IMG/VR virus record: IMGVR_UViG_3300025292_000002 | Span: 33,568 to 97,567 of that record | Strand: one strand, 5' to 3' | Source: a virus | Lineage: Duplodnaviria > Heunggongvirae > Uroviricota > Caudoviricetes | DNA length: 64,000 nt | The notes under the pieces: model-generated | Seen by the model: only the letters and a program-made list of their open reading frames with translations | The model's database searches: none | Told to the model about the DNA's origin: nothing | Shown: positions 4,449 through 61,077 of the stretch, one piece after another | How the letters are laid out: each line of letters begins with the position of its first letter | Position numbering within the stretch: position 1 is the first letter of the stretch | Translations under genes and position numbers: made by a program

Positions 4449-4466
4449 TTGAATATTAATTTTCAA
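4449..4466. repeat. 18-bp palindrome family copy (ttgaatattaattttcaa)
   Basis: 17 of 18 identity to TTGAATATTAATATTCAA; intergenic. Confidence 0.8.
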
Positions 4467-4470
4467 TTAA

Positions 4471-5067
4471 TTAACCTGCATAAGGCATTACATAAATTGT
4501 AATAAATTCACTCCAAGCTTTAGAAATATTTTGTTTATAATGAAGGCGCTCGAATTTTTGAACCAATCCGTTAACTCGTCCTTCAAAATTACGACGAACT
4601 GTATTATAGTTGAAAATGTTCAATCCTAAACGGTGAATTTCTATTAGGTTGATTACGAGCTCTTTGATTTCTGCCATCGTATATTCTTTTGTAGCTGCAA
4701 CCACGTCTTTGTATGTGCGTTTTTTAGGGGTTTGTTTTAATTCAACGCCATAATATTCCATTACATGTTGACGAATATAATTTCTAAATTTGTCCAATCC
4801 TAACTTTTCTTTATTCATAGTAAACCAACTGTAATAAGATTCAGCTAATGGACCCATGTTTTTAAATTGACCAGTTCGCATTGGATTTCCACCGCTGATA
4901 AGGCATTCAAAAACCAACTCGTGTAAACCTTCTAATGTAAATGATGCACGGTCATAGCGATTGCGATTTGCTTCTTTCTTTGCGATTGAAATCTCATTAA
5001 CTTTTGTTTGTTTTGTTGTCACAATTAACAGCTCCTCAATTTGTATTTTTATTTGTTTGTCTTTCAT
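4471..5067 (-). CDS. hypothetical protein
   Basis: 198-aa ORF immediately downstream of a family promoter. Confidence 0.55.
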   Translation of the reverse strand: MKDKQIKIQIEELLIVTTKQTKVNEISIAKKEANRNRYDRASFTLEGLHELVFECLISGGNPMRTGQFKNMGPLAESYYSWFTMNKEKLGLDKFRNYIRQHVMEYYGVELKQTPKKRTYKDVVAATKEYTMAEIKELVINLIEIHRLGLNIFNYNTVRRNFEGRVNGLVQKFERLHYKQNISKAWSEFITIYVMPYAG

Positions 5068-5073
5068 GATACT

Positions 5074-5102
5074 ATTGTATTGACGTAAACATGGCGGTAA
5101 GA
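5074..5102 (-). promoter_or_regulatory. conserved phage promoter module (family copy, -35 variant)
   Basis: tattgtattga-N11-cggtaaga. Confidence 0.55.
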
Positions 5103-5245
5103 CAGCGAACTAACATTTTTTCAAAAAAAATACAGCTACGATATTAAATCGTAACTGTATAGCTTTTGATGATTGGTTATATGATTGTTCACGAACAAAT
5201 AAATAAATTGAAAAGCTGCATGATTAGTAAAATGAACATTTTACC

Positions 5246-5272
5246 ATAAAAAAACGGAGCCTAAGCTCCGCT
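5246..5272 (-). terminator. rho-independent terminator
   Basis: hairpin cggagc-ttag-gctccg followed by T7 on the minus strand. Confidence 0.65.
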
Positions 5273-5282
5273 TTCCTTTGAT

Positions 5283-5630
5283 TTACTTCGATTCTCTTTC
5301 ATCTGCTTCAAATGATTTCTCACGCTCGCAATAAGCAGCATATACTTTCAAGGTTTCAACAATTAATTTCGGAGAAAGGTATTTTTCCAGCTGGAACATA
5401 TCACCTGGCTCAGAAACATGAGCTAATACATGACGGAACATATCCACATCGTCTTTTATTAGATTGTGTAAATATCGGTCATACACAACAATCCCTTCAC
5501 CATTTAAAATAATACAGCCACGTAGTTTGCCATGGTTGAAATCTCTGGCTGGAACGTCATTCACACCATTCCCATCATATGTTTTCCATGTTGGTAATAA
5601 AACATCTTCCATTCGGATTTTGTAACCCAT
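5283..5630 (-). CDS. hypothetical protein
   Basis: 115-aa ORF. Confidence 0.5.
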   Translation of the reverse strand: MGYKIRMEDVLLPTWKTYDGNGVNDVPARDFNHGKLRGCIILNGEGIVVYDRYLHNLIKDDVDMFRHVLAHVSEPGDMFQLEKYLSPKLIVETLKVYAAYCEREKSFEADERESK

Positions 5631-5697
5631 TCAAAACAACTCCTTATTTATATGATACATATATCATAACATATGTTACCAGATAAATCAAGAACTG

Positions 5698-6264
5698 TTA
5701 CTTGAGCGCCTCAAATCTTTCTTCAGCAAATTCTTCTTCACGAGAAGCCATTGTTTGATTGTATTCTCCAGCTATATAATAATTTCCGTATTGGTCTTGT
5801 TTGCCAGGTGTTAACGTGGCATTTCGTATTCGCATACGTTTACCGCACTGTCTACAATTGCAATAAATTTGCTGCTTAAGTATGAAATGTTTCCCTTTGT
5901 CATTGCACGATGGACAAATGTAATACAATTGGAATTTTTCATCTTTGCCTTTCTTTTCAAGCTTACCCCAATGTGTTTCAGGCTCAGCAACCGCAATAAC
6001 AGGTGGTGGCTCTTCAACTTTTGTTTCTTCAGCTTTTACTTCAACCTTTTCTTCTTGCTCAAGGTCTTTAACAGCTTCATATCCCATTTGATATAAACGT
6101 AAAGCCTCGGAATTGTTTTGATTTTCAGCATTTGAGCTAAAATAAAACATTCTCACCATGTTATCGACAAGCTGAAACTGAGCTTGTTCGTCATTGTGTT
6201 CCATTTTTGCTTCGAGCGTCTGCCCGTTTTTGTTTGTTATTTTTATCTCTATTTTTGACAACAT
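5698..6264 (-). CDS. zinc-finger protein (two CxxC pairs), start moved to internal ATG
   Basis: The track ORF overlaps the upstream gene by 125 nt. An internal ATG follows tttttaggaggtttt, and a terminator lies just upstream. Motifs CPSC...CNCRQC. Confidence 0.5.
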   Translation of the reverse strand: MLSKIEIKITNKNGQTLEAKMEHNDEQAQFQLVDNMVRMFYFSSNAENQNNSEALRLYQMGYEAVKDLEQEEKVEVKAEETKVEEPPPVIAVAEPETHWGKLEKKGKDEKFQLYYICPSCNDKGKHFILKQQIYCNCRQCGKRMRIRNATLTPGKQDQYGNYYIAGEYNQTMASREEEFAEERFEALK

Positions 6265-6303
6265 AAAACCTCCTAAAAATGTACTACATATACTATTATA
6301 CAA

Positions 6304-6330: not shown

Positions 6331-6334
6331 TTTC

Positions 6335-7122: not shown

Positions 7123-7140
7123 TTGAATATTAATATTCAA
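7123..7140. repeat. 18-bp palindrome family copy (perfect TTGAATATTAATATTCAA)
   Basis: perfect palindrome; intergenic, next to a terminator. Confidence 0.85.
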
Positions 7141-7141
7141 T

Positions 7142-7615
7142 TTATTTAGTTTCGTTATTTTTCATAGTTCTAGCTTTTATTTCTTCTTCACGCTTTTTCA
7201 TAGCTTCTTGAACACGTTCTGCCATATTGCTTAACTCTTCTTGTTTTTCTTTTTTATCGTCTTTTTTATTGTTGTTTTTAGCTGGAGTTTTTTCTTTCTC
7301 CTTAGCTTGTTTTGGTTCTATTATTTCTGCTCCAATACCTTCTAAAAATCCAATTATTCCTTTGTCCATTGCTTGTGGTGTAATGTGAGTGATAATATAC
7401 AAATCCTCAGTGATAAATAAGTTTTTCTTTTTGATTACAGCACCTTCAAAATATTCCTCGTCAGACAGCCTCAAGCCTGATTCGAAAGTTCCTTCTATTG
7501 CTGTTCTTTCATCAAGTTGCTTGAAATATTCAAAAAATTCACGAAACAAAGCTGCATGAGTCGGACAATCAAACGATTTCATTTTGCCATTGTAACGAAA
7601 TTTTAACTTTTTCAT
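7142..7615 (-). CDS. hypothetical protein with Lys/Glu-rich C-terminus
   Basis: 157-aa ORF. Confidence 0.5.
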   Translation of the reverse strand: MKKLKFRYNGKMKSFDCPTHAALFREFFEYFKQLDERTAIEGTFESGLRLSDEEYFEGAVIKKKNLFITEDLYIITHITPQAMDKGIIGFLEGIGAEIIEPKQAKEKEKTPAKNNNKKDDKKEKQEELSNMAERVQEAMKKREEEIKARTMKNNETK

Positions 7616-8706: not shown

Positions 8707-9015
8707 TTAAGCTAATCCTCCACCGAAATCGTCCAACGGTTCAACAACTTTTTGTTGTACGGGCACTGTTTGCTTTACCTTAGGAATATATGTTGGTTCG
8801 GGCTCAGTCAATTCAACTTCAGCTACAGAAGCTGAAAGTTCAAGTTGAGCTGGCATGTAATGTTTGTTTTTCATTTCTTCTTCAGCTATATCACGTTCAA
8901 CTAGCTGACGGATATATAACGCTATACCATCTTTGTCCTTTTTCGAGTCGAGCTTCTCACACACAGCTGGATGTTTTTTCTTGTTTATACGCAATGGATA
9001 TAGCCATATTGTCAT
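8707..9015 (-). CDS. small protein downstream of the ParM-like gene, possibly a ParR-like ribbon-helix-helix adaptor
   Basis: ATGA start/stop overlap with the upstream gene. The N-terminus shows a beta-strand followed by helix pattern. Confidence 0.4.
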   Translation of the reverse strand: MTIWLYPLRINKKKHPAVCEKLDSKKDKDGIALYIRQLVERDIAEEEMKNKHYMPAQLELSASVAEVELTEPEPTYIPKVKQTVPVQQKVVEPLDDFGGGLA

Positions 9016-9842
9016 GCAAACATCATCTCGAATCGTTTTTCATACGTCAAGAACAAGCCAACAACGTTAACATAGTAAGCTGGGTACTCAGTTAATGAGA
9101 CACTCTTCGCATTCTCATAACCAACTTCTTGTAATGCTTCGGCAATTGCTTCTGATTTGCCACCTGTCACAAGAATTTCTTTGTCATAATCAACATCAGG
9201 AAAAGCTCGAGAGAAACTATCAGCTAACGCAAAGCTTGAATGTTTGATTGTGCCACCATTCAATGTTTTTGAGCGGGCTGCATTTATTGTTCCTTCGATT
9301 AAATATAAAATATTCATTGTCATTGAGCCAGCATCAACAACAACCAAATCTCGATTGTTTGTAAATGCTAAAGCTCCTAAACCTTCAGCTGCAACTCGTA
9401 AATTTTCAATTGTGAAATTGAAAGCTTTGTTGTCAACAACACTTTCACGAGCTCCGTTTAATTTTTGTTCGAAATAATCTTTGTCTTTTTTCATAGCTGT
9501 GTACGGGCTTGTCGTTACAACGTTAAATGTTGAGATACCTGTTTCTTTATAAATTTCGTGCAAAGCTCCGACGATTCTAATAATTCCCTCGTGGTGACCT
9601 TTTCGTTTATTGCCTCGGTACATCATTTCTTCGCTAGCGTGAAATTTTGCTGCTCCTTTTCCGATGTAATAATCAAAATTTCCGTATGAAACACGCTTTA
9701 CTTCGTTGTTGAAAACCGTCTCCATTTCCTCGTATTTGTGTGTGATTGAATAAAACGTTCCCACTTTTACGTCTCCTTGGTGACGATAAACATACTTCGT
9801 TGAGAAATTACCTGGGTCAATAAGCACTGTTAGTACTGTCAT
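9012..9842 (-). CDS. actin-like ATPase of the ParM/Alp family
   Basis: phosphate-1 motif LIDPGNFSTK, phosphate-2 motif VVVDAGSMT, adenosine motif LVTGGKSEA; 276 aa. Confidence 0.65.
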   Translation of the reverse strand: MTVLTVLIDPGNFSTKYVYRHQGDVKVGTFYSITHKYEEMETVFNNEVKRVSYGNFDYYIGKGAAKFHASEEMMYRGNKRKGHHEGIIRIVGALHEIYKETGISTFNVVTTSPYTAMKKDKDYFEQKLNGARESVVDNKAFNFTIENLRVAAEGLGALAFTNNRDLVVVDAGSMTMNILYLIEGTINAARSKTLNGGTIKHSSFALADSFSRAFPDVDYDKEILVTGGKSEAIAEALQEVGYENAKSVSLTEYPAYYVNVVGLFLTYEKRFEMMFA

Positions 9843-10436: not shown

Positions 10437-11027
10437 TTAGATTGCTAATCCTCGCATTAATAAAAGGGATTGCAATTTTTCTTTTGTTTTGCGTACACGT
10501 TGGTTTGCTGCTTGGCGAGAAATTCCACGCATTTCAGCTAAAACTGTTGAATTAAATTCATGAGGATATAAAATACATAACAGCTCTTCTTTTTCACGAT
10601 TGTCTGTATGTTCCTCGATAACTTGCATGATTTCTTCGCCAACGATGCCACCATATGTGAAATCAACTTCATCTTGCTTGAACATATCTTCATATGTTAA
10701 ATCTTCAGAGTCGCCAAGTGTTGCGTTCATTGAAACAACGCCATAGCTTGTACGTTTTTGAGCTGTGATTTTTTGTGCTTCGTTACCTGTTACCTTTTTT
10801 AATTTGAATGTTAAAAATGTTGAGAAAGCATGCTTTTCATCGTATTCTTCAAACGCTTTCCATGTTTCAAGCTTCATTTCTTGAATCATGTCTTCACGTT
10901 CAATTGAATTGAATTTGCTGATTGCGATGTTAGCTGCTTTGTTAATCATACGATTAAAATGTTTTAAAACCTCCTCGTATGTCATTTCCTTTTTAACACC
11001 GTTTGATAAGATAATAGTTTTTTTCAT
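10437..11027 (-). CDS. phage-encoded sigma-70-family (ECF-like) sigma factor
   Basis: region-2-like LETWKAFEEYDEKHAFSTFLTFKLKK and region-4 helix-turn-helix MRGISRQAANQRVRKTKEKL; 196 aa. Confidence 0.75.
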   Translation of the reverse strand: MKKTIILSNGVKKEMTYEEVLKHFNRMINKAANIAISKFNSIEREDMIQEMKLETWKAFEEYDEKHAFSTFLTFKLKKVTGNEAQKITAQKRTSYGVVSMNATLGDSEDLTYEDMFKQDEVDFTYGGIVGEEIMQVIEEHTDNREKEELLCILYPHEFNSTVLAEMRGISRQAANQRVRKTKEKLQSLLLMRGLAI

Positions 11028-11157
11028 TTTAAAAGCCCCTTTTCAATTTGTTTTTTTAGAATAATGTTTTGGACAGAACGTAAACAGTTGTAAAATTTCA
11101 AATTGTCTGAATTTTCCGTCAACTTAGCTCGTGTATGTGAGGTCTTTATTACATGTG

Positions 11158-11259
11158 TGTCGAACACAATTCTGAAAATTTCGACTTTTTTCGACGTTTT
11201 CTGACACCATTCGACAAAAGTTTCACAAAAGCGTAGTGTTTGGACGCAATTTTCGACAA
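11158..11259. promoter_or_regulatory. phased array of Spo0A-box-like (TGTCGAA) repeats in the sigma-factor leader
   Basis: exact TGTCGAA at 11158-11164 (+), and on the minus strand at 11210-11216 and 11253-11259; 6-of-7 matches at about 11180, 11191 and 11199; spacing about 10-11 bp. Confidence 0.5.
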
Positions 11260-11493
11260 AATATTTGATTATGTTACAACTTTGTTACACAATGTTACAG
11301 TACAAATTTCTTTGTAAGAACTTCGTTGTCCCTTTTCACTTTCTCAATATATCATGGTTGGAAACTTTCGTAAAGTGATATTTACTTTACGGGAATAATG
11401 ACGGACAGTTGCTCGAGTGAGCAACTCCGTATTATCAATGTTTCCAACATGATAAACTTTTTTTATTTTTTTTCAAAGACCTGATGACCTGGT

Positions 11494-16436: not shown

Positions 16437-16462
16437 AACATCCTCCTAGTAAAATTCACATT

Positions 16463-16846
16463 TTATTCGGCTAAACCGTGCGTTTCCTTTAAAGCCTGAT
16501 ACAATTTTTCGATTAACTCTACAGGAACATATCCGTAGACACCGCCAGCGTCGTATTCTTCGAACTCATCTGCTAGTGGAGAATCAGGAAGCGCTTCTCG
16601 AACATTGATGAAACCGTTTATCATTAAAGCAATTTCCATTCTTGAGTATTCGCTTAATTCAAGCGTTTCTCGAGGTGTGCAATAATGACCGTAGCTTGCT
16701 TGAACACTTAACACAATACCATTGTTAAATACTAAACCTTTTAACATTCTGTAATGGGTCATTCCTCTAAGCTCAGGTTTTGTTAAAATTTGAAATTTCA
16801 TTTTTAAGCTGTCTTCCGTTTGATGAAGCTTTGTTAAAAATTCCAT
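16463..16846 (-). CDS. hypothetical protein
   Basis: 127-aa ORF behind a family promoter. Confidence 0.55.
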   Translation of the reverse strand: MEFLTKLHQTEDSLKMKFQILTKPELRGMTHYRMLKGLVFNNGIVLSVQASYGHYCTPRETLELSEYSRMEIALMINGFINVREALPDSPLADEFEEYDAGGVYGYVPVELIEKLYQALKETHGLAE

Positions 16847-17117: not shown

Positions 17118-17308
17118 AATATTTCCCCTTTTCTTATTGAATATAGATATTCAATTTCGTATACCCCAATTGCTTCAATAGAATCTTCTCGTTGAACGAG
17201 CTCAAAGAATTGAAGCTTCCAAGTTGGGTTGCAATCAATAACCCTTTTTAACGCTTTTGTTAAATCGTACATATTTTTTTCTTCGAAATAATGTACCGTT
17301 TGTTTCAT
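17114..17308 (-). CDS. hypothetical protein (start moved downstream of the family promoter)
   Basis: AAGGAG RBS before MKQTV. The 18-bp palindrome variant lies inside the coding sequence. Confidence 0.45.
   Translation of the reverse strand: MKQTVHYFEEKNMYDLTKALKRVIDCNPTWKLQFFELVQREDSIEAIGVYEIEYLYSIRKGEIL
17137..17154. repeat. 18-bp palindrome family variant inside a coding sequence (ttgaatatagatattcaa)
   Basis: 16 of 18 identity, palindromic. Confidence 0.5.
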
Positions 17309-21619: not shown

Positions 21620-22164
21620 CTTTCACATTCGCTATTTTCCACGACATAACCAAGCAATCTCATGTGTGCTAATGTTTTATCGTGATTAACAACAAACTCA
21701 TCTACATGCTTATAGAAATCTAAGAAATCTTGAGCATCAGATTCAATACGTCTTTCAATTTCTGCTGCATTTTTTTCACCGTCACGGGCATAAGCTCGTT
21801 CACGTCTTAATGATTCTGAAGCATGAATGTATACTATTTTAACTTTGTCACCAAAGCGTTCTTTCATTTCAAGCGCTCCTGAAGCTTCTAATACAACAAT
21901 AGTGTTTTCATGACCTTCAAAATCTGCAACATTCACACCATAAATCCATTTGCCGAAAGCTGTGTTAAATTCATTTCGTGCTATTAAATCAAGTTCATTG
22001 ATTTCCTTTTCGCTAACGAAATTATAATCAATACCATCGACTTCCCCTTCACGAGGAGGTCGAGTAGTATAATTGACTTGGCGTTTAAATCCTGTCATTT
22101 CTTCCATTTCTTTCGCCATTGTTGTTTTACCGCTTGAAGTTTGACCTGTTAAAACAAATATCAT
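21607..22164 (-). CDS. guanylate-kinase-like nucleoside monophosphate kinase
   Basis: P-loop GQTSSGKTT; TTRPPREGEVDGIDYNFVS signature. Confidence 0.75.
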   Translation of the reverse strand: MIFVLTGQTSSGKTTMAKEMEEMTGFKRQVNYTTRPPREGEVDGIDYNFVSEKEINELDLIARNEFNTAFGKWIYGVNVADFEGHENTIVVLEASGALEMKERFGDKVKIVYIHASESLRRERAYARDGEKNAAEIERRIESDAQDFLDFYKHVDEFVVNHDKTLAHMRLLGYVVENSECERCGY

Positions 22165-22706
22165 TTAGCTACCCCCAGTAATAAATCTTCGTAATCTCTT
22201 AAGTACATCCATTTGTACCCGCCATATTTTTTGTATCGAGGTCTATTTGGGCTACAACATTGTGTAATACCTGCTTTTGCACATTTAGCTGCTTTAGACG
22301 CTGCGCTAACCGTTGGGAATGTTTCCATGTATGTTCCATCTAAAGAAAATTGAACAACAGGAGTAGGATGATTTCTGCCAAGTGGCGTTACTCGTTTCAA
22401 ATAAGCTTTTTTATTGTTTTCAGATTGTGTTACCCATCGTAAATTTTTGTAATGGTTATTCACTCTGTCCTCGTCGATATGGTCAACAACCATTCCTTCA
22501 GGACGTTTTCCATGAAACGCTTCACATACTGCAACATGCACAGCGAAATAAGCTTTTTCATAAGTGAATGCGAAATAATCATTGCTTGAATGGAAGAATT
22601 TTGGCTCTTCCCAAACACCTTCATTACATACTAACGTGTTACCAAAACTGCTAACTTTTACTTTGCCTTCCCAGCCTGCTACGTCTTTCCATACTTCTGT
22701 TTCCAT
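22161..22706 (-). CDS. HNH homing endonuclease (HNH_3 with NUMOD4-like N-terminus)
   Basis: NNHYKNLRWVTQSENN; ETEVWKDVAGWEG. Confidence 0.75.
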   Translation of the reverse strand: METEVWKDVAGWEGKVKVSSFGNTLVCNEGVWEEPKFFHSSNDYFAFTYEKAYFAVHVAVCEAFHGKRPEGMVVDHIDEDRVNNHYKNLRWVTQSENNKKAYLKRVTPLGRNHPTPVVQFSLDGTYMETFPTVSAASKAAKCAKAGITQCCSPNRPRYKKYGGYKWMYLRDYEDLLLGVAK

Positions 22707-22725: not shown

Positions 22726-22743
22726 TTGAATATTAATTTTCAA
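22726..22743. repeat. 18-bp palindrome family copy (ttgaatattaattttcaa)
   Basis: 17 of 18. Confidence 0.8.
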
Positions 22744-23408: not shown

Positions 23409-23513
23409 TTCAATTTCCCCTTTTTCTTTTTTGATTTAGTTGATTGGTAAGCTACCATTGATTCAATGATAGCTCCAATCACATCTAGAATAATTTCAAC
23501 TAAAATCTGCATT

Positions 23514-23909
23514 TTATCGCTGGTCCAAAGCTTTGTATTCACGGAATAAGTTTAACATAACTCCGTCATGTTGAGCCAAAGCTGCGAACAATGAAGCTCT
23601 GTCCATTTGACGAACACGTTTTTCCATTTTCTCAGCAATTTCACGTTTTTGTGCTGCAACTTTTTCACGAGCTTCATGGTCAGATAAATCAACTTTTTGA
23701 ATAACCCATTTCATTTTGCCAACAATTTCTTGTGGAATAACCGTGATATAACCATCAACTTCAGCTAAACTGATACCATTTACCGTGTGTACAACAACCT
23801 GGTCACCTTTACGTAAATCTGGAATGCTAGTTAAGAAGAAATAGCTTCTGTATGGTGTGTCCTGAAATTTTACGCTCACATAATATTTTCTCATTTTAAT
23901 TTCCTCCAA
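23514..23909 (-). CDS. hypothetical protein, paralog of 23934..24272
   Basis: shared pattern Y..V.F.ETPY..YFFLT...L...D.VVV.T..G...A.V.GY.......QKVDL..HE.RE. Confidence 0.55.
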   Translation of the reverse strand: MEEIKMRKYYVSVKFQDTPYRSYFFLTSIPDLRKGDQVVVHTVNGISLAEVDGYITVIPQEIVGKMKWVIQKVDLSDHEAREKVAAQKREIAEKMEKRVRQMDRASLFAALAQHDGVMLNLFREYKALDQR

Positions 23910-23933: not shown

Positions 23934-24272
23934 TTATAATGTTGATAAAAGTGCTTCAGCTTCAAACAACTGCTCTTTTAGCGTGTCGATTGTTTTTGCT
24001 AACTTTTGACGCTCTTTTTCTTTAAATAGTGATGTGCGCTCACGGTCTTCATGTTGACGTAAATCTACTTTTTGAACAACAAATTTAGCAACGTTGAATC
24101 CTACAGTTTTAATATCAACATATCCCACAACTCGAGCTAAACGGTAACCAATAGCTGTATCAACAACAACTAAATCATTTTCTTTTAGTTTTTTCATGTT
24201 TGTTAAAAACGTATAATATTTATATGGTGTCTCCTCGAATACTACCTGTACGCATTTGATATTTTCATTCAT
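23934..24272 (-). CDS. hypothetical protein, paralog of 23514..23909
   Basis: see paralog. Confidence 0.55.
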   Translation of the reverse strand: MNENIKCVQVVFEETPYKYYTFLTNMKKLKENDLVVVDTAIGYRLARVVGYVDIKTVGFNVAKFVVQKVDLRQHEDRERTSLFKEKERQKLAKTIDTLKEQLFEAEALLSTL

Positions 24273-25010: not shown

Positions 25011-25028
25011 TTGAAAATTAATATTCAA
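25011..25028. repeat. 18-bp palindrome family copy (ttgaaaattaatattcaa) between two tandem promoters
   Basis: 17 of 18. Confidence 0.8.
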
Positions 25029-29771: not shown

Positions 29772-29791
29772 AAGCTATTCGACAATATTTA

Positions 29792-29809
29792 TTGAATATA
29801 AATATTCAA
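29792..29809. repeat. 18-bp palindrome family copy (ttgaatataaatattcaa)
   Basis: 16 of 18, still a perfect palindrome. Confidence 0.8.
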
Positions 29810-31639: not shown

Positions 31640-32003
31640 TCACTTGACACTTCCATCTTTGTATATCTTTACAGGCCTATTCATATATGGATTTTTATCT
31701 AAATCTAACGATTCACCTTCAATTATGTAATAATCCTTTTTACTTTTAATTCCTTTACATATATACGATTGTGAACCATCGCCTTGGGGTATCACAGCTT
31801 TCAACCTACACCGTTCAAGAATGTTTTCCTTGTCTCTTGCCTTATACATATTATATGAATGCGTAATGCCCACCTGTGCTGCCATTATAATCGGAAAAAC
31901 TAACAGTGCTAAAAATGTTAATACCCTCTTTTGTAATTGTTCTTGTCCCATTGATTCTATTTTATCTTTGTCAATGATATGTTTCATTATGAAATTTTTC
32001 AAG
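31640..32003 (-). CDS. membrane protein (probable TTG start behind GGAGGTG RBS)
   Basis: one TM segment; own sigma-A promoter upstream. Confidence 0.45.
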
Positions 32004-32030
32004 CGTGTTTCACCTCCTTTACATTTACTA

Positions 32031-32064: not shown

Positions 32065-32082
32065 TTGAATATTAATATTCAA
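32065..32082. repeat. 18-bp palindrome family copy (perfect)
   Basis: TTGAATATTAATATTCAA. Confidence 0.85.
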
Positions 32083-32697: not shown

Positions 32698-33024
32698 TTA
32701 AAATAATCTTGTTTTGTTTTTTTCGATTGTCAAATCAGCCATTGTATTAATCATATCGAAATATTCCTGCAACCCTGTTTCATTGAACAAATCATGTAAA
32801 TTTTTAATGATGTCATATTCTTCTTTGGAAATCACAAGGTATTTTTCATCGGTAACGTCAACATCAATTTGACAGCCATTAATTTCGTCGTGTCCAACGC
32901 AATTTGGGTCAATGTATTGAATCCAACCACGTTCACCTTTTTCATTTTGAATTGTATAAATTTTGTACTTGTCTTTTGTCACTTTTCGTTCACTCCTTAT
33001 TAGTTTGTATATTAATAATAACAT
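32698..33024 (-). CDS. hypothetical protein
   Basis: 108-aa ORF. Confidence 0.5.
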   Translation of the reverse strand: MLLLIYKLIRSERKVTKDKYKIYTIQNEKGERGWIQYIDPNCVGHDEINGCQIDVDVTDEKYLVISKEEYDIIKNLHDLFNETGLQEYFDMINTMADLTIEKNKTRLF

Positions 33025-33048
33025 ACGTTGTCAGATTGGTCAACTGTT

Positions 33049-33066
33049 TTGAATATTAATTTTCAA
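33049..33066. repeat. 18-bp palindrome family copy (ttgaatattaattttcaa)
   Basis: 17 of 18. Confidence 0.8.
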
Positions 33067-36693: not shown

Positions 36694-36717
36694 AAGCTCG
36701 TAAAATATTTATTTTAC

Positions 36718-38943: not shown

Positions 38944-38973
38944 CAAAAAAAATAAGAGCGAATTTTCGCTCTT
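38944..38973. terminator. bidirectional rho-independent terminator
   Basis: hairpin agagcgaa-aa-ttcgctct flanked by A8 and T7 runs. Confidence 0.65.
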
Positions 38974-40603: not shown

Positions 40604-40621
40604 TTGAATATTAATATTCAA
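40604..40621. repeat. 18-bp palindrome family copy (perfect)
   Basis: TTGAATATTAATATTCAA, 20 bp upstream of the promoter -35. Confidence 0.85.
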
Positions 40622-46183: not shown

Positions 46184-46206
46184 TTCATCCTCCTAAAATT
46201 CCGATT

Positions 46207-46404
46207 TTACTCAGTTTCTTTCCAACCCATGTTCCATTCAGTACCACATTTAAAACAAGAGTAGCTTTTCATGCGTTTGGTTTTCGTAAAGAAACCGCCA
46301 AGCTTTGTCGTGGTTATGCCAATACAATAAGAATTGCAAGTCGGACATATGTTATCATCCGACTTGATTTTCTTAAAGCTTGGTCGCTTTGTAATGTGCT
46401 TCAT
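46207..46404 (-). CDS. zinc-ribbon protein
   Basis: CPTCNSYC...CFKCG. Confidence 0.45.
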   Translation of the reverse strand: MKHITKRPSFKKIKSDDNICPTCNSYCIGITTTKLGGFFTKTKRMKSYSCFKCGTEWNMGWKETE

Positions 46405-47055: not shown

Positions 47056-47073
47056 TTGAATATTAATATTCAA
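47056..47073. repeat. 18-bp palindrome family copy (perfect)
   Basis: overlaps the TGA stop of the upstream gene and abuts the RBS of the downstream gene. Confidence 0.85.
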
Positions 47074-47849: not shown

Positions 47850-47918
47850 TGTTCATTACCTCCTCTTTCTTATTACTTCTTTATTATACTATGGTTCTCA
47901 TCATACGTCAATAGATAT

Positions 47919-47936
47919 TTGAATATTAATTTTCAA
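47919..47936. repeat. 18-bp palindrome family copy (ttgaatattaattttcaa)
   Basis: 17 of 18. Confidence 0.8.
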
Positions 47937-52394: not shown

Positions 52395-52412
52395 TTGAAT
52401 ATTAATATTCAA
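52395..52412. repeat. 18-bp palindrome family copy (perfect)
   Basis: TTGAATATTAATATTCAA. Confidence 0.85.
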
Positions 52413-57299: not shown

Positions 57300-57347
57300 T
57301 TCCTCCTAAAATATAAATTTTACTGGGTTATAGCATCAATATATACG

Positions 57348-59215: not shown

Positions 59216-59223
59216 AGGGCTTG

Positions 59224-59233
59224 TTACTTTTTT
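59224..59233 (-). other. candidate -1 programmed ribosomal frameshift site (A_AAA_AAG heptamer immediately before TAA)
   Basis: minus strand reads tcA AAA AAG TAA. The -1 frame continues open into the 3D-domain ORF as V T S P M S S A K. Confidence 0.45.
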
Positions 59234-59604
59234 GAATCTAACTCATTCCTCAGCTTTTCTTTTTCCGCAATGACCTGTTTGTTCTTTTCATTCAATTCTG
59301 CATTTGCTTGTTTTTGCTGTGTGAGAGCTTCATTGGCCGATTGTAATTCTTGTTGAACTTTCGTTAATTCTTCTTTTGAAGAATCTAATTCCGTTGCAAC
59401 ATCTTCAAATCGCTTAGTGATTGTTTTAACTTGCTCGTGATTTTCTTTAGATTCTTTTTTGGCATCTACAAGCTTTTCTTCAACTTTTACTTTTTCTTGA
59501 TACACCGTATTATAATTTTGGAATCCCACATAACTCATCGCTGATGCACCAACTGCTAGTGAAAAGAAAGCGGTGAGAACATGTTTACTTGTGAATTTTA
59601 ACAT
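59224..59604 (-). CDS. membrane-anchored coiled-coil protein (frame-0 product; putative N-terminal part of a frameshift fusion)
   Basis: N-terminal TM/signal-anchor; 90-aa coiled coil; strong RBS next to the palindrome. Confidence 0.55.
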   Translation of the reverse strand: MLKFTSKHVLTAFFSLAVGASAMSYVGFQNYNTVYQEKVKVEEKLVDAKKESKENHEQVKTITKRFEDVATELDSSKEELTKVQQELQSANEALTQQKQANAELNEKNKQVIAEKEKLRNELDSKK

Positions 59605-59618
59605 ATAATTTCCTCCTA

Positions 59619-59636
59619 TTGAATATTAATATTCAA
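59619..59636. repeat. 18-bp palindrome family copy (perfect), abutting an RBS
   Basis: minus strand reads TTGAATATTAATATTCAAtaggaggaaattatATG. Confidence 0.85.
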
Positions 59637-59663
59637 CTCCACATTAGTGGAGCTGAATAATTA

Positions 59664-60950
59664 TTAATTGTATGATGGTTCTGTTTTGTCATCTCGTAAA
59701 CGTTTGAATGTTGGGAAACGTAACGATACGCCACCGTCTTGGTTTTTTGATTCTTCAAAATATCCCACTTCGACAATCGTACCAATCAATTCAAATCGCT
59801 CAGACCATAGCTTGTTGCGCTCAACGTCGCTGAAACCAGAACCGACATTAACTTCATATCCTTTGTATTCAACGACCAGCGAACCGAGCTTGTCGCCATG
59901 TTTATGTTCTTCGAAACCAACAATTCTTAAATCAGCTGTTTCGAACTTTTTAACTTTAAGCAACTTACGTGAACGTTTTGTTTCATATAAAGCATCAACT
60001 GGCGATACCATTAATCCTTCAAGACCAGCTTTAGAAGCTTCTTCCAATAGCTCATACACACGTTGCTTATCTGTTCCAACATAATAAATTGGGACAATTT
60101 TTAATAAATCATGGTCAGCTTGTTCAACAACTGTTGTCAAATCGTTGATACGCTCTTCTAATGGCAAATGTGATTTACCGAACTTAAATTCAACAATACG
60201 CAACATATCGAATGCCCAAAATTGAATGCCAGTTTTAACGCCATCTTTACGAACGATTTTTTGTGTGTATCGGAATAAATCGTCTGAAGTATAATTATGG
60301 ATGTTTTCAGCAATCAATTCTCCATCGTATACAATACCTTTAGGCAATTGTTTGAAAATTTCTTCAAGTTCGATTAATCCTTCGATTGGATGTCCTTGTC
60401 GTGTGAAGAATTTAGGACCAGCTTGTTCATTGATAACAGTACAACGAATTCCATCTAATTTCAAGCTTACTTGGAATCGTCCTTTGATTTTATCTTGATG
60501 GTCTTCCCATTTAGAAGCTAACATTACATTATGCTCTGGGATAAAGCTTAAACCAACTGAATCTTTTCCGAATACTTTGTTAATTGTTTTGGCTGTGATA
60601 CCAACTTTTAAATCTTTTATTAATATGTTGGTTACAAATTGTTTCATATCATCATCTAATTGTGACAGATAATTTTGAACAACGCCAATAACATCATCTG
60701 AACCTGTGTTATTTTTTGCTACGAATTTCATTAGCTCACTTAGTTTATGAAAACCAACTGAAACTGGCACGACAGTACGAGTTACTTTCTTTTTAGCTAA
60801 TCCTGTTACAACATATGGATTGTAAACGAATTTAAGCACTTCTTTAAATCCTGCTAAATCAGCATGTTTCAATAACAATGCTTCTTTTTCATTTCTACTT
60901 GATGTTGCTTCAATTTCATCAAACGCTAACATTAAATTTTTAACACTCAT
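59664..60950 (-). CDS. ATP-dependent DNA ligase
   Basis: adenylation motif I SLKLDGIRC (KxDGxR); OB domain; 428 aa. Confidence 0.85.
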   Translation of the reverse strand: MSVKNLMLAFDEIEATSSRNEKEALLLKHADLAGFKEVLKFVYNPYVVTGLAKKKVTRTVVPVSVGFHKLSELMKFVAKNNTGSDDVIGVVQNYLSQLDDDMKQFVTNILIKDLKVGITAKTINKVFGKDSVGLSFIPEHNVMLASKWEDHQDKIKGRFQVSLKLDGIRCTVINEQAGPKFFTRQGHPIEGLIELEEIFKQLPKGIVYDGELIAENIHNYTSDDLFRYTQKIVRKDGVKTGIQFWAFDMLRIVEFKFGKSHLPLEERINDLTTVVEQADHDLLKIVPIYYVGTDKQRVYELLEEASKAGLEGLMVSPVDALYETKRSRKLLKVKKFETADLRIVGFEEHKHGDKLGSLVVEYKGYEVNVGSGFSDVERNKLWSERFELIGTIVEVGYFEESKNQDGGVSLRFPTFKRLRDDKTEPSYN

Positions 60951-60980
60951 TACATTACCTCCTAATTTTGATTACACCGT

Positions 60981-61010
60981 TATTGTATTGATATGTATTA
61001 AAATGTAAGG
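60981..61010 (-). promoter_or_regulatory. conserved phage promoter module (family copy)
   Basis: tattgtattga-N12-tgtaagg. Confidence 0.6.
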
Positions 61011-61059
61011 AAGCATTGTATTTCGATTATATTTCAATGTTGTAACAATGCTGTAAGAA

Positions 61060-61077
61060 TTGAATATTAATTTTCAA
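61060..61077. repeat. 18-bp palindrome family copy (ttgaatattaattttcaa) overlapping a plus-strand promoter -35
   Basis: 17 of 18. Confidence 0.8.

What the first reader, a model, noticed from the sequence alone, without database searches (positions are those of the whole stretch)
4449..61077. Fourteen copies of an 18-bp perfect palindrome, TTGAATATTAATATTCAA, at gene boundaries
Thirteen intergenic copies, five perfect and eight with a single substitution that keeps TTGAA...TTCAA ends, plus one 16-of-18 variant inside a coding sequence (17137). The sequence is far too long and too frequent to arise by chance in 64 kb. All copies sit at gene boundaries. Most lie next to a rho-independent terminator and 16-40 bp upstream of the -35 of the next promoter (7123, 29792, 32065, 40604, 52395). 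Two abut a Shine-Dalgarno sequence directly (47056, 59619), and one of those overlaps the stop codon of the upstream gene. One overlaps the -35 of the only plus-strand promoter (61060). One lies between two tandem promoters (25011). An AT-rich palindrome is a poor terminator stem, so a dimeric DNA-binding protein site seems more likely. Candidates are a phage early-gene repressor or activator operator, a UP-element-like enhancer, a nucleoid-protein anchoring site, or a hotspot for a homing-type nuclease or recombinase.
Basis: seen in the sequence. Interest (0 to 1): 0.72.

Follow-up and report, generated by a model that had tools for sequence, protein, structure and literature searches.

The report
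Repeated 18-bp palindrome at phage gene junctions
An 18-base palindrome recurs at the boundaries between genes in this plasmid-like Bacillus phage and in many unrelated Bacillus prophages; it is most likely a docking site for a small regulatory protein, and it also marks the points where these viruses swap genes.

Summary
TTGAATATTAATATTCAA (P1) occurs 15 times in the window with up to 2 mismatches, against 0.05 expected: 6 perfect, 7 with one mismatch, 2 with two. Twelve copies are centred in the 14% of the window that is non-coding (p = 2e-8).

The window belongs to a 97.6-kb pBS32/pLS32/GR1-like phage-plasmid. P1 is kept at orthologous junctions in two relatives whose RecJ is 61-67% identical. 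It is absent from GR1 and from the pLS32 sequence examined (first 50 of 85.6 kb). The same 18-mer occurs in multiple copies in unrelated small siphophages and Bacillaceae prophages. In one of those groups about 28 of 33 copies sit 5-8 bp upstream of a sigma-A -35.

An RNA hairpin is unlikely. The fold is only -2.8 kcal/mol, and the commonest variant breaks a stem pair without ever being compensated.

In prophages, homology breakpoints fall exactly at P1 edges. In the window's own family, P1 flanks the variable gene slots.

My best reading is a duplex-DNA site for a dimeric regulator, working as a promoter-proximal operator and an intergenic roadblock, that doubles as a junction for module exchange. 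The candidate binder is an 82-aa MerR-like HTH_17 protein encoded just outside the window, but the evidence is only partly consistent. No paper found mentions the sequence. I class it as a new variant of known kinds: stoperators, SPBRE and PeSL.

The parts
4449..4466 (.). P1 copy with one mismatch (A13T on the + strand). It lies 4 nt after the stop of the 183-aa gene and 36 nt before the start of the 108-aa gene.
7123..7140 (.). Perfect P1 copy. It lies 1 nt after the stop of the 157-aa gene and is followed by a terminator hairpin, then the promoter TTTACA-17-TACAAT (7083-7055). The same arrangement is seen at the syntenic position in relative L232 (3120).
17137..17154 (.). P1 copy with two mismatches, both in the centre (TA to AG). 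It lies in the last 13 codons of a 64-aa gene, 8 nt upstream of the next Shine-Dalgarno sequence. The same central variant recurs in Bacillus prophages (L022 6105, L062 5972).
22726..22743 (.). P1 copy with one mismatch, 6 nt upstream of the AGGAGG of an HNH/NUMOD-type homing-endonuclease gene (22161-22706).
25011..25028 (.). P1 copy with one mismatch (T6A on the + strand), between two tandem CTTACA...TCAATAyAAT promoters. Relatives L226 (19679) and L227 (19318) also carry P1 in this slot, which sits next to a variable gene.
29792..29809 (.). P1 copy with one mismatch in the centre. It follows the terminator of the ABC-ATPase-like gene and lies 21 nt upstream of the CTTACA of the Pol III alpha promoter, with a Spo0A-like box (TGTCGAA) in between. 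L226 has a copy at the same junction (14786).
32065..32082 (.). Perfect P1 copy, directly after a terminator hairpin and 6 nt upstream of TTGTGT-17-(TG)TATAAT. That promoter drives a 120-138-aa membrane-protein gene whose only detected homologues among the loci fetched are in the unrelated P1-rich siphophage contigs.
33049..33066 (.). P1 copy with one mismatch, after the RecJ terminator and 5 nt upstream of TTGACC-17-TATTAT. L226 (11826) and L227 (11846) also carry P1 after RecJ, although the downstream genes are unrelated.
40604..40621 (.). Perfect P1 copy, after the NAMPT terminator and 21 nt upstream of a CTTACA-N12-TCAATACAAT promoter.
47056..47073 (.). Perfect P1 copy. It contains the stop codon of a 43-aa ORF and directly abuts the AGGAGG of the next gene.
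47919..47936 (.). P1 copy with one mismatch, after a terminator and 7 nt upstream of TTGACG-17-TATAAT (47911-47883), which drives the DUF3846 gene.
52395..52412 (.). Perfect P1 copy, after the YorF-like gene's terminator and 21 nt upstream of a CTTACA-N12-TCAATACAAT promoter.
59619..59636 (.). Perfect P1 copy, between the DNA ligase gene and a 126-aa gene, 1 nt upstream of AGGAGG.
61060..61077 (.). P1 copy with one mismatch in the only divergent intergenic region. It abuts the -35 of the plus-strand promoter TTGCAT-17-TATAAT (61078-61106), which drives the only plus-strand gene (61136-61393, 85 aa).
62436..62453 (.). P1-like copy with two mismatches, inside the YonV_C-type helicase-like gene.
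33015..33043 (-). Sigma-A-type promoter TTGACC-17-TATTAT, 5 nt downstream of P1 33049.
47883..47911 (-). Sigma-A-type promoter TTGACG-17-TATAAT, 7 nt downstream of P1 47919.
61078..61106 (+). Sigma-A-type promoter TTGCAT-17-TATAAT, abutting P1 61060.

Best explanation
P1 (consensus TTGAAWAT-WA-ATWTTCAA) is a recognition site on double-stranded DNA for a sequence-specific dimeric protein. The element is a temperate phage-plasmid of the pBS32/pLS32/GR1 type.

Proposed mechanism. A dimer bound just upstream of a -35, or between the -10 and the Shine-Dalgarno sequence, controls initiation at a subset of sigma-A-type and SigN-type promoters. These promoters mostly drive accessory genes. A dimer bound at junctions inside operons acts as a roadblock, as stoperators do.

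Second role. Because the site is kept nearly identical at many junctions and in many phages, it also serves as the crossover point for exchange of gene cassettes.

Candidate binder. The most likely binder is the 82-aa MerR-like winged-helix protein (Pfam HTH_17) encoded about 3 kb beyond the left end of the window. The sigma-A promoter upstream of it, which heads the SprT-like gene, the 80-aa gene and HTH_17, carries a P1 copy between the -10 and the Shine-Dalgarno sequence. That arrangement suggests autoregulation, if the three genes are one operon.

Shown: the repeat, its significance, its junction placement, its conservation at orthologous junctions, its phasing with promoters, the lack of hairpin selection, and the breakpoints at its edges.

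Inferred: that a protein binds it, which protein, and whether the effect is repression or activation.
For: Real and selected
- 15 copies against 0.05 expected.
- 12 of 15 are centred in the 14% of the window that is non-coding, p = 2e-8.
- Three more copies lie just beyond the window.
- P1 is retained at orthologous junctions (after RecJ, before Pol III, before the KTI12-like gene, before the SprT-like gene, after the 157-aa-gene position) in L226/L232 and L227. RecJ is 61-67% identical there and the neighbouring genes differ.

Duplex protein site rather than hairpin
- The fold is -2.8 kcal/mol, and -0.7 or 0 for the common variants.
- Of 125 distinct copies, 55 are perfect and 29 carry T6A alone. 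None carries the compensated double change. The centre is the most variable part.

Linked to transcription
- In the P1-rich siphophage contigs, 24 copies by the scripted test, and about 28 of 33 after inspection, lie 5-8 bp upstream of a near-consensus sigma-A -35.
- In the window the offsets are 5, 6 and 7 nt at 33049, 32065 and 47919, and exactly 21 nt to CTTACA at three sites.
- P1 lies between the -10 and the Shine-Dalgarno sequence of the SprT-like gene, which is followed by the 80-aa gene and HTH_17, in both the window's phage and L232.

Candidate binder
- HTH_17 is present in the window's phage, on the L226 contig (74% identical) and on a 96.4-kb contig of the L227 lineage (68% identical; L227 itself is a 32-kb contig). 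It is absent from P1-less GR1.
- Loci fetched only through HTH_17 homology at 70% identity carry 2-3 P1 copies within 3 kb.
- Homologues in P1-positive loci share ISR[AS]R at the recognition helix. Four P1-negative clades have TTTR, NRSR, TYQR or TRQR.
- The AlphaFold model (pLDDT 89.6) is a MerR-like winged helix with a long C-terminal helix. The nearest solved folds include RacA and GlnR, in DNA complexes. That those two bind 14-17-bp palindromes as dimers is from my own knowledge.
Against: - No binding was or could be tested.
- The HTH_17 link is not strict. An Aneurinibacillus plasmid has a 63%-identical SRAR-type HTH_17 and no P1 within 10 kb.
- A Neobacillus prophage contig (15 kb) has three P1 copies and no HTH_17. 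The P1-rich siphophage contigs, which are fragments of 18 kb or less, show none either.
- The 18-mer is identical across phage groups whose HTH_17 proteins are only 44-67% identical. That is unusual for a phage-encoded repressor and points instead to a conserved host factor or to spread by recombination.
- P1 upstream of a -35, centred near -52, is not a classic repressor position.
- Only about 6 of roughly 35 SigN-type promoters in the window have P1, and several sigma-A-like promoters lack it.
- No regulator gene was found inside the window apart from a Rha-like protein and the sigma factor.
Confidence: 0.45

Rival explanations
1. P1 is mainly a junction or linker element, like the PeSLs of T4-type phages. 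It is a short conserved sequence at cassette boundaries that gives phage or host recombination systems enough identity to swap, insert or delete genes. It carries stop codons in two of three frames on both strands, and it provides an AT-rich leader or upstream region. In this view any protein binding is secondary or absent.
For: - Homology between Bacillus prophages ends exactly at a P1 edge in 4 of the 9 pairs that have one conserved and one unrelated flank.
- One pair differs by a whole P1-cassette-P1 segment against a single P1: L022 has RHH-P1-[69 aa + Rep]-P1-HNH, and L067 has RHH-P1-HNH.
- In the window's family, P1 sits at the edges of slots that hold unrelated genes in each of three phages: after RecJ, after DnaB, and before the KTI12-like gene.
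- Window genes next to P1 (157 aa, 138 aa, 108 aa, HNH) have their only detected homologues, among the loci fetched, in otherwise unrelated P1-carrying phages.
- P1 followed by a Shine-Dalgarno sequence and a SprT-like gene recurs in 7 prophage loci from distant Firmicutes.
- Upstream genes often terminate inside P1.
- In the siphophage contigs, P1 belongs to a repeated module of about 60 bp made of a terminator hairpin and a promoter. That matches the definition of PeSLs (PMC2839356, PMC4122927).
- The phage encodes a Sak4-like annealing protein (AAA_24).
Against: - 18 bp is very short for homologous recombination, and no dedicated recombinase is associated with P1.
- The tyrosine-recombinase-like gene is 64% identical in P1-less GR1.
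- Mosaic breakpoints in phages fall at gene boundaries anyway, and any conserved functional intergenic site would look like an island between diverged flanks.
- The clean breakpoint cases are few and all come from one prophage group.
- Population-level benefit alone does not explain near-perfect conservation of 14 of 18 positions within one genome.
- The strict phasing with the -35 argues for a role in transcription.
Confidence: 0.22
2. P1 is the operator of a conserved host (Bacillaceae) DNA-binding protein that many phages and prophages have recruited. The comparison is with the Spo0A and LexA boxes carried by Bacillus phages, which tie phage gene expression to host physiology.
For: - The identical 18-mer is found in at least five phage groups that share no single regulator family in the sequence available.
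- Bacillaceae genera make up a large share of the 120 stretches returned by the genome scan (Bacillus cereus group, Neobacillus, Priestia, Rossellomorea, Cytobacillus, Fictibacillus, Lysinibacillus).
- P1 is absent from relatives that live in Geobacillus (GR1) and Aneurinibacillus.
- P1 is directly fused to LexA-like boxes (CGAAC-N4-GTTyG) in several prophage promoters.
- P1 lies next to Spo0A-like boxes in L041 and at 29778 in the window.
Against: - In the Bacillaceae genome hits the recurrent neighbours of P1 are phage genes (capsid, portal, terminase, HNH, integrase, SprT-like). No conserved host gene or regulon was seen next to P1.
- B. subtilis plasmid pLS32, from the same family and a Bacillaceae host, has no P1 in the first 50 kb examined.
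- P1 does not match the known Bacillus boxes I could recall (LexA, Spo0A, CodY, Fur/PerR, Rex, ARG box with a different spacing, ScoC). That comparison is from memory and was not tested against a database.
- Some P1-SprT cassettes occur in Paenibacillus and in an Oscillospiraceae MAG.
Confidence: 0.15
3. P1 is an unusually conserved UP-element-like enhancer contacted by the alpha C-terminal domains of host RNA polymerase. It boosts strong early and moron promoters.
For: - In about 28 of 33 siphophage copies and 3 window copies, P1 plus the following A-run spans about -41 to -58. That is the UP-element position.
- By my own alignment, the common variant followed by AAA matches 12 of the 14 specified positions of the E. 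coli UP consensus. The consensus is recalled from memory.
- RNA polymerase alpha is highly conserved, which could explain sharing across phages.
Against: - In the window and its extension, six copies directly abut a Shine-Dalgarno sequence with no promoter downstream of them, and others follow a stop codon ahead of a terminator. All three copies in a 46-48% GC phage contig abut a Shine-Dalgarno sequence.
- Three window copies are 21 nt, not 5-8 nt, from the -35.
- UP elements are degenerate A/T tracts. An 18-of-18 palindrome with a conserved G and C is not expected.
- Several sigma-A-like promoters in the window lack P1.
Confidence: 0.08
4. P1 acts in RNA, as a hairpin for processing, for 5' stabilisation, or for control of translation of the downstream cistron.
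For: - Several copies lie 0-8 nt upstream of a Shine-Dalgarno sequence inside operons.
- Intergenic processing sites are known in T7 and SP82 early transcripts (from my own knowledge).
Against: - The hairpin is only -2.8 kcal/mol. The commonest natural variants give -0.7 and 0 kcal/mol.
- There are no compensatory changes among 125 copies.
- Many copies lie downstream of terminators and upstream of promoters, where little transcript is expected.
Confidence: 0.05

Closest known systems
Operator/stoperator sites of Cluster A mycobacteriophages (L5, Bxb1; PMC9283540)
   Same: Both are short conserved sites present in many copies across a temperate phage genome. Both occur in promoter regions and in short intergenic spaces inside operons. 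The proposed action is the same: block initiation at promoters and elongation at intergenic sites.
   Different: Stoperators are asymmetric 13-mers whose orientation follows transcription, and a monomeric repressor binds them. P1 is an 18-bp palindrome, so it has no orientation and implies a dimer. P1 is shared by unrelated phage families. Its binder is unknown.
SPBRE, the operator of the master repressor MrpR (YopR) of Bacillus prophage SPbeta (PMC10516654)
   Same: Both are repeated elements in intergenic promoter regions of a large Bacillus temperate phage. SPbeta's replication module (YorF/G/H/I/J/K/L, YonV) is homologous to the one in this window. SPBRE was first seen in silico and shown decades later to be the master repressor's site.
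   Different: SPBRE, recovered here from SPbeta as roughly ACAAATACAAAWAATATGTATAT, overlaps the -35/-10 region, is not a palindrome and has no similarity to P1. No MrpR homologue is present: the tyrosine-recombinase-like protein of this phage does not align with YopR.
PeSLs, composite promoter-terminator cassettes of T4-type phages (PMC2839356, PMC4122927)
   Same: Both are repeated regulatory sequences that flank variable, mostly unknown genes in plastic regions. In both, homology breakpoints and cassette gain or loss occur at the repeat. In the P1-rich siphophage contigs, P1 belongs to a repeated module made of a stem-loop and a sigma-A promoter.
   Different: PeSLs are longer composite motifs in Gram-negative T4-like myoviruses. 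Each is a strong sigma-70-like promoter plus a terminator stem-loop, and no palindromic core is shared across families. P1 is an 18-bp palindrome that also occurs alone, without a promoter or terminator, directly before ribosome-binding sites.
UP elements of strong bacterial and phage promoters
   Same: Both are AT-rich sequences at about -40 to -60 of strong sigma-A promoters.
   Different: UP elements are degenerate and non-palindromic, and occur only at promoters. P1 is near-invariant and palindromic, and many copies are not at promoters.
SigN (ZpdN) regulon of plasmid pBS32 (PMC6751061)
   Same: The element family is the same. The window encodes a sigma factor 38% identical to the pLS32 sigma factor, which lies at the syntenic position and which I take to be the SigN counterpart. 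The window also carries about 35 copies of a lineage-specific promoter motif, matching the roughly 19 TTTACGTTTT-N9-cAGATATA promoters I found in pLS32.
   Different: P1 is not the SigN-type promoter. It is a separate element, present only in this sub-lineage, and the SigN paper does not describe it.

Membership tests
Stoperator-type multi-site repressor system (Cluster A mycobacteriophages) | Many copies of one short site dispersed through the genome in short intergenic regions as well as at promoters | tested here: met
   There are 15 copies in the window and 3 more in the next 10 kb. Their positions are upstream of a -35, between a -10 and a Shine-Dalgarno sequence, and at junctions inside operons.
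Stoperator-type multi-site repressor system (Cluster A mycobacteriophages) | Asymmetric site whose orientation correlates with the direction of transcription | tested here: not met
   P1 is a perfect palindrome. The one asymmetric variant (T6A) occurs in both orientations relative to transcription.
Stoperator-type multi-site repressor system (Cluster A mycobacteriophages) | The site is bound by the phage immunity repressor, which blocks initiation and elongation | not testable with these tools
   This needs EMSA, ChIP and reporter assays. I can offer only a candidate, the 82-aa HTH_17 protein.
SPBRE / MrpR system of SPbeta | Sequence resembles SPBRE and overlaps the core promoter | tested here: not met
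   SPBRE, extracted from SPbeta upstream regions, is non-palindromic and unrelated to P1. P1 lies upstream of the -35 or elsewhere.
SPBRE / MrpR system of SPbeta | A MrpR (YopR)-like repressor with a recombinase fold is encoded by the element | tested here: not met
   The 327-aa tyrosine-recombinase-like protein shows no significant BLASTP match to YopR (best E = 0.29). It is 25% identical to YomM and 64% identical to its orthologue in P1-less GR1.
PeSL-type mobile regulatory cassettes | Composite of a strong sigma-70-type promoter and a terminator stem-loop | tested here: inconclusive
   This holds for the siphophage contigs, where the -35 lies inside a GC hairpin followed by a T-run and TATAAT. 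It holds for about 7 window copies that sit next to a terminator and a promoter. Six copies in the window and its extension have neither and abut a Shine-Dalgarno sequence.
PeSL-type mobile regulatory cassettes | Located at the edges of variable gene slots, with indels and replacements between relatives that begin or end at the repeat | tested here: met
   Three-phage synteny shows P1 at the edges of variable slots. Breakpoints fall at the P1 edge, and one P1-cassette-P1 segment is matched by a single P1 in a related prophage. The number of cases is small.
PeSL-type mobile regulatory cassettes | Recombination between copies demonstrated (mini-circles, deletions) | not testable with these tools
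   This needs PCR or deep sequencing of phage DNA.
UP element | AT-rich sequence at -40 to -60 of a promoter | tested here: inconclusive
   The feature is met for about 28 of 33 siphophage copies and 3 window copies, with offsets of 5-8 nt. It is not met for the Shine-Dalgarno-adjacent copies, the copies after stop codons, or the copies at a 21-nt offset.
Intrinsic terminator or structured RNA element | A stable stem maintained by compensatory changes | tested here: not met
   The fold is -2.8 kcal/mol, and -0.7 or 0 for the variants. None of 125 copies carries the compensated double change, against 29 uncompensated single changes.

The most novel reading that the evidence does not exclude
P1 is a universal junction used by many otherwise unrelated Bacillaceae (and some other Firmicutes) phages, prophages and phage-plasmids. 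In this reading an 18-bp palindrome, recognised by a small mobile MerR-like protein or by a host factor, terminates the upstream reading frame, insulates and regulates the downstream gene, and serves as the shared crossover site through which single-gene cassettes (SprT-like protease, HNH endonucleases, membrane proteins) move between phage families. That would be a phage counterpart of integron attC sites or PeSLs, working across virus families.
Probability: 0.2. Interest if true: 0.8.

Novelty: new variant of a known kind. Interest (0 to 1): 0.6.

Why it matters
If P1 is a multi-site operator, it points to an undescribed regulatory circuit in the pBS32/GR1-like phage-plasmids. That circuit would act on accessory genes and on a small MerR-like regulator, beside the known LexA-SigN cascade. 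It would also give a simple handle, an 18-mer, for finding the regulator by pull-down.

If P1 is also the crossover point for cassette exchange, it offers a concrete and testable mechanism for mosaicism between unrelated Bacillus phages. It would also be a practical marker for cassette boundaries in metagenomic phage genomes.

The same analysis turned up a second junction palindrome shared by the whole family, and the probable regulon of the phage sigma factor.

Tried and rejected
- **SPbeta SPBRE/MrpR.** I considered it because the window shares YonV, YorF and YorL-type genes with SPbeta. I extracted SPBRE from SPbeta and found it unrelated to P1. YopR is not homologous to the local recombinase-like protein.
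- **Cultured phages.** Megablast and blastn of the window, and of a P1-rich contig, against cultured phages found nothing. A 36-mer holding P1 plus a -35 gave only chance-level hits.
- **Literature.** Searches for the 18-mer and its sub-strings found no relevant paper.
- **Regulator inside the window.** Pfam and PHROGs scans of about 46 window proteins found only a Rha-like protein (36062-36637), the sigma factor and SprT-like domains. No HTH repressor turned up.
- **Other candidate binders.**
  - An RHH protein whose stop codon overlaps P1 in two prophage groups.
  - A small protein family I provisionally call DUF5659-like, from memory and without a Pfam test, present in four groups.
  - Neither is detectable in the window's phage.
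- **Tyrosine-recombinase-like protein as binder.** Rejected, because it is 64% identical in P1-less GR1.
- **Closer relatives.** Searches of IMG/VR and the JGI metagenome contigs with RecJ found nothing useful. Relatives came only from the protein database followed by contig look-ups.
- **Host-regulon idea.** Clustering of the genes next to P1 in 120 genome loci gave phage genes only.
- **Gyrase or REP-like site.** Set aside, because P1 also occurs in small siphophages whose available fragments (18 kb or less) show no homologue of the window's gyrase genes, and because gyrase-encoding GR1 lacks P1.
- **Known Bacillus boxes.** LexA, Spo0A, CodY, Fur/PerR/Zur, Rex, AhrC ARG box, ScoC and ArsR/SmtB sites, compared from memory only, do not fit P1. 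The ARG box has the same TGAAT/ATTCA arms but a spacer 2 bp shorter.

Full report
**1. The observation**

The pattern TTGAATATTAATATTCAA (P1) matches 15 times in the 64-kb window with up to 2 mismatches. Dinucleotide-preserving shuffles predict 0.05 matches, and none of 100 shuffles reached 15.
- Six copies are perfect: 7123, 32065, 40604, 47056, 52395, 59619.
- Seven have one substitution: 4449, 22726, 25011, 29792, 33049, 47919, 61060.

Almost all genes are on the minus strand. With a gene map of about 96 genes, 14.2% of the window is non-coding, and 12 of the 15 copies are centred there (p = 2e-8). Of the other three, 17137 sits in the last 13 codons of a 64-aa gene, 47056 contains the stop codon of a 43-aa ORF, and 62436 is internal to the helicase-like gene.

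Read in the direction of transcription, the copies fall into recurring arrangements.
- After a terminator and 5-7 nt upstream of a sigma-A-type -35: 47919, 33049, 32065.
- After a terminator and exactly 21 nt upstream of the CTTACA of a second, phage-specific promoter type: 52395, 40604, 29792.
- Between two such promoters: 25011.
- After a stop codon and before a terminator and promoter: 7123.
- 0-8 nt upstream of a Shine-Dalgarno sequence inside an operon: 47056, 59619, 22726, 17137.
- Abutting the -35 of the only plus-strand promoter, in the only divergent region: 61060.

**2. What the window is**

There is no nucleotide match to cultured phages. The proteins are those of a replication and nucleotide-metabolism module:
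- gyrase/topoisomerase subunits;
- class I ribonucleotide reductase;
- Pol III alpha;
- DnaB;
- a RecJ-like DHH exonuclease;
- NAMPT;
- an ATP-dependent ligase;
- a YonV_C helicase-like protein;
- YorF- and YorH-like proteins;
- an actin-like ALP;
- thymidylate synthase and DHFR;
- a sigma factor.

The window is the right-hand 64 kb of a 97.6-kb metagenomic contig. Its closest cultured relative is Geobacillus phage GR1, with Pol III alpha 58% identical and the same gene order.

RecJ homologues also place the family on the roughly 84-kb Bacillus subtilis plasmids of the pLS32/pBS32 type. The window's sigma factor is 38% identical (E = 4e-37) to the pLS32 sigma factor at the syntenic position. 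I take that to be the counterpart of SigN/ZpdN of pBS32, which drives a large plasmid regulon after LexA derepression (PMC6751061).

The element is therefore best described as a temperate phage-plasmid, not a lytic phage. The window contains about 35 copies, all on the minus strand, of cCTTACA-N12-TCAATAyAAT. pLS32 carries about 19 copies of TTTACGTTTT-N9-cAGATATA in its first 50 kb, and GR1 has the same kind of motif. I infer that the CTTACA-type promoters are the regulon of the phage sigma factor. Only about six of them have P1 nearby, so P1 is not a part of that promoter.

**3. P1 in relatives of this phage**

GR1 and the first 50 kb of pLS32 have no P1. Two closer relatives were recovered through the protein database:
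- L226/L232, from a 98.4-kb contig, with RecJ 67% and Pol III 79% identical;
- L227/L228, with RecJ 61% identical.

Both carry P1, and at the same junctions as the window:
- after RecJ in all three phages;
- before the KTI12-like gene in all three;
- between the ABC-ATPase-like gene and Pol III in two;
- after the 157-aa-gene position, ahead of a terminator;
- between the promoter and the Shine-Dalgarno sequence of the SprT-like gene;
- upstream of the recombinase-like gene.

The neighbouring genes in these slots are often unrelated between the three phages. Ten kilobases beyond the left end of the window hold three more copies (L195 12068, 15046, 16568).

P1 is conserved in the sub-lineage and absent from more distant family members.

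**4. P1 outside the family**

The exact 18-mer occurs in 67 IMG/VR stretches and in at least 120 stretches of the species-representative genome set. Single occurrences in AT-rich genomes look like chance. Several groups, however, carry it in multiple copies.

- **Group B.** Metagenomic siphophage fragments with an HK97-type head module, carrying 33 copies. One has 11 copies in 12 kb.
- **Groups C and E.** Small prophages of the Bacillus cereus group, with 2-4 copies each.
- **Group D.** Neobacillus prophages.
- **Group F.** A 38.5-kb contig of 46-48% GC with three perfect copies, every one abutting a Shine-Dalgarno sequence.

Groups B to E share head and terminase genes with each other. With the window's phage they share only a few small genes.

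In Bacillaceae genomes the recurrent neighbours of P1 are phage genes: capsid, portal, terminase, HNH, integrase and SprT-like. They are not host genes.

In group B, a scripted test finds a near-consensus sigma-A promoter 5-8 bp downstream of P1 for 24 copies. Inspection adds four more with TTGCxC -35 boxes. In those promoters the -35 lies inside a GC-rich hairpin that is followed by a T-run and TATAAT, so the unit is a composite terminator-promoter module. The remaining group-B copies include an orthologous site that abuts the portal gene's Shine-Dalgarno sequence.

In some prophages P1 is fused directly to a LexA-like box, CGAAC-N4-GTTyG.

**5. DNA site or RNA hairpin?**

The RNA hairpin is weak. 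It folds at -2.8 kcal/mol for the perfect copy, -0.7 for the commonest variant and 0 for another.

Among 125 distinct copies from loci that hold at least two copies:
- 55 are perfect;
- 29 carry T6A (or its mirror) alone;
- 10 carry a centre change;
- 6 carry A5T;
- none carries the compensated T6A+A13T pair.

The half-sites therefore vary independently, and the centre is the freest part. This is the pattern of a dimeric protein site on duplex DNA: TTGAAWAT-WA-ATWTTCAA. A selected stem would not look like this. Many copies also lie between a terminator and the next promoter, where little RNA is made. On this basis I rank the RNA explanations low.

**6. Who binds it?**

Nothing in the window looks like a repressor. 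Just outside it, downstream of gyrA, a sigma-A promoter (TTGACA-17-TATATT) is followed by P1, a Shine-Dalgarno sequence, a SprT-like metalloprotease gene, an 80-aa gene and an 82-aa HTH_17 gene. L232 has the same arrangement.

*Evidence for HTH_17 as the binder*
- Homologues turned up in eight further loci that had been fetched only because they contain P1.
- Homologues lie on the L226 contig (74% identical) and on a 96.4-kb contig of the L227 lineage (68%). They are absent from GR1.
- B. cereus-group islands fetched only through a 70%-identical homologue carry 2-3 P1 copies within 3 kb, one of them 120 bp upstream of the gene.
- Homologues in P1-positive loci share ISR[AS]R at the start of the predicted recognition helix. 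Four P1-negative clades have TTTR, NRSR, TYQR or TRQR.
- The AlphaFold model (pLDDT 89.6) is a MerR-like winged helix with a long C-terminal helix. The nearest solved structures are CbpM, BldC, RacA, GlnR/TnrA and excisionases, at weak E-values. RacA and GlnR/TnrA are precedents for small proteins of this fold binding 14-17-bp palindromes as dimers; that point is from my own knowledge.

*Evidence against*
- An Aneurinibacillus plasmid with a 63%-identical SRAR-type homologue has no P1 within 10 kb.
- Groups B, D and F show no HTH_17 in the partial sequence available.
- P1 is identical across groups whose HTH_17 proteins are only 44-67% identical.

Two other recurrent neighbours are not detectable in the window's phage. 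One is an RHH protein whose stop codon lies in P1. The other is a small protein family I provisionally call DUF5659-like.

I therefore hold the protein-site reading at about 0.45, and HTH_17 as the binder at roughly half of that.

**7. P1 as a junction**

I compared all P1 instances pairwise. Nine pairs have one 100-nt flank at least 80% identical and the other below 50%. In four of these the similarity ends exactly at the P1 edge.

One comparison is especially clear. L022 reads RHH gene, P1, a 69-aa gene plus a replication gene, P1, HNH gene. L067 reads RHH gene, P1, HNH gene. Both outer flanks are more than 90% identical. This is the product expected from recombination between two P1 copies, or from insertion of a cassette at P1.

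Further observations point the same way.
- In the window's family, P1 borders slots that hold different genes in each phage.
- Several P1-adjacent window genes have their only detected homologues, among the loci fetched, in P1-carrying phages of other groups: 7142-7615, 31640-32056, 32698-33024 and the HNH gene at 22161-22706.
- A cassette of P1, a Shine-Dalgarno sequence and a SprT-like gene recurs in seven prophage loci, including Paenibacillus and an Oscillospiraceae MAG.
- P1 has stop codons in two of three frames on both strands, and upstream genes often end inside it.

This is the behaviour described for the PeSL promoter-terminator cassettes of T4-type phages (PMC2839356, PMC4122927).

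The caveats are real. The number of cases is small, phage breakpoints tend to fall at gene boundaries anyway, and any conserved functional site will look like an island of identity between diverged flanks. I treat the junction role as well supported as a pattern. As a mechanism, I treat it as a consequence of P1's conservation rather than its primary function.

**8. Comparison with known systems**

- **Stoperators.** P1 behaves like the operator/stoperator sites of Cluster A mycobacteriophages in number and placement. It fails their defining asymmetry and orientation rule (PMC9283540).
- **SPBRE.** P1 resembles SPBRE of SPbeta in being a repeated promoter-region element of a related Bacillus phage. 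It shares neither the sequence, nor the position within the promoter, nor the MrpR repressor (PMC10516654).
- **PeSLs.** P1 resembles PeSLs in marking plastic junctions. It is a bare 18-bp palindrome that also occurs without a promoter or terminator.
- **UP elements.** P1 sits where an UP element would at many promoters, but many copies are not at promoters.

Full-text searches found no paper that mentions the sequence. I class it as a new variant of known kinds.

**9. Verdict**

The repeat is real and strongly non-random. It is conserved at orthologous junctions and shared among several Bacillaceae phage lineages.

The best-supported mechanism is a duplex-DNA site for a dimeric regulator, working as operator and roadblock, which also acts as a recombination junction. 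The binder and the direction of regulation remain to be shown. Interest is moderate to high for phage genomics and regulation (0.6).

Noticed in passing
window 5228-5243, 16450-16465, 23501-23516, 36701-36716, 46194-46209, 57307-57322: A second intergenic palindrome, P2 (TAAAAT-N4-ATTTTA, often ATAAAAT-N4-ATTTTAT), has conserved arms and a free 4-nt centre. All six window copies are non-coding. Several contain the upstream stop codon or abut a Shine-Dalgarno sequence. Unlike P1, it is found across the whole family: 8 copies in GR1, 4 in the first 50 kb of pLS32, and copies in L226, L227, L229-L232 and L235. In L226 it sits directly next to P1 twice (8213/8231 and 19679/19700).
   Followed up: partly
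window, about 35 sites on the minus strand, e.g. 63158, 61793, 60991, 55527, 52355, 45384, 40564, 36674, 29752, 25848, 17347, 4023, 2048: A highly conserved promoter-like motif, cCTTACA-N12-TCAATAyAAT, usually follows a terminator. It is probably the regulon of the phage sigma factor (10437-11027). That factor is 38% identical to the pLS32 sigma factor, which I take to be SigN-type. The pLS32 motif is different: TTTACGTTTT-N9-cAGATATA.
   Followed up: partly
window 11150-11260 (upstream of the sigma gene 10437-11027) and 29778-29784: Spo0A-box-like heptamers (TGTCGAA/TTCGACA) cluster in the long leader upstream of the sigma-factor gene, at 11158, 11210 and 11252, with further GTCGAA repeats. 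One more lies between P1 29792 and the Pol III promoter. A similar cluster sits next to a P1 variant in contig L041 (about 1790-1830). This may couple the element to sporulation.
   Followed up: no
window 9012-9842 and 8707-9015; L195 15567-16550: The element has an actin-like ALP_N partition gene with a small downstream gene, and a 327-aa tyrosine-recombinase-like gene. Relatives occur as plasmids of about 84 kb in Bacillus isolates. Together these indicate a phage-plasmid lifestyle of the pBS32/pLS32/GR1 type.
   Followed up: partly
L195 12101-13405 (just left of the window); also window 38972-39499: A SprT-like metalloprotease gene, an 80-aa gene and a MerR-like HTH_17 gene lie in a row behind a sigma-A promoter that carries P1. 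The layout recalls protease-plus-repressor modules such as ImmA/ImmR. The window holds a second SprT-like gene.
   Followed up: partly
L201-L206 (e.g. L201 12839, L206 11923): A prophage clade with a diverged HTH_17 (recognition helix TTTR) lacks P1 but has one copy of TTGAATATTCAA. That is P1 with the central ATTAAT removed.
   Followed up: no
L062 12849, L017 7437, L049 3952, L031 3492, L092 6943, L067 1901, L086 937, L082 6369, L114 2393, L173 1399: P1 is fused without a spacer to a LexA-like box (CGAAC-N4-GTTyG) upstream of a promoter. In the prophages where I identified the downstream gene, it encodes a 167-183-aa protein of unknown function. This looks like a conserved SOS-controlled cassette.
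   Followed up: no
window 63180-64000: The right end of the window, which is also the end of the contig, is about 800 bp of non-coding, very AT-rich DNA with runs of TATA/ATAT-type short repeats and no convincing ORF. It may be the genome terminus or a replication or packaging region.
   Followed up: no
window 36062-36637: A Rha-family regulatory protein gene (Phage_pRha) occupies the variable slot between DnaB and primase, directly after a P2 copy. The two close relatives have unrelated genes in this slot.
   Followed up: no
window 23514-23894 and 23934-24272: Two adjacent paralogous genes of unknown function (126 and 112 aa) match a single gene in relatives L226 and L227.
   Followed up: no
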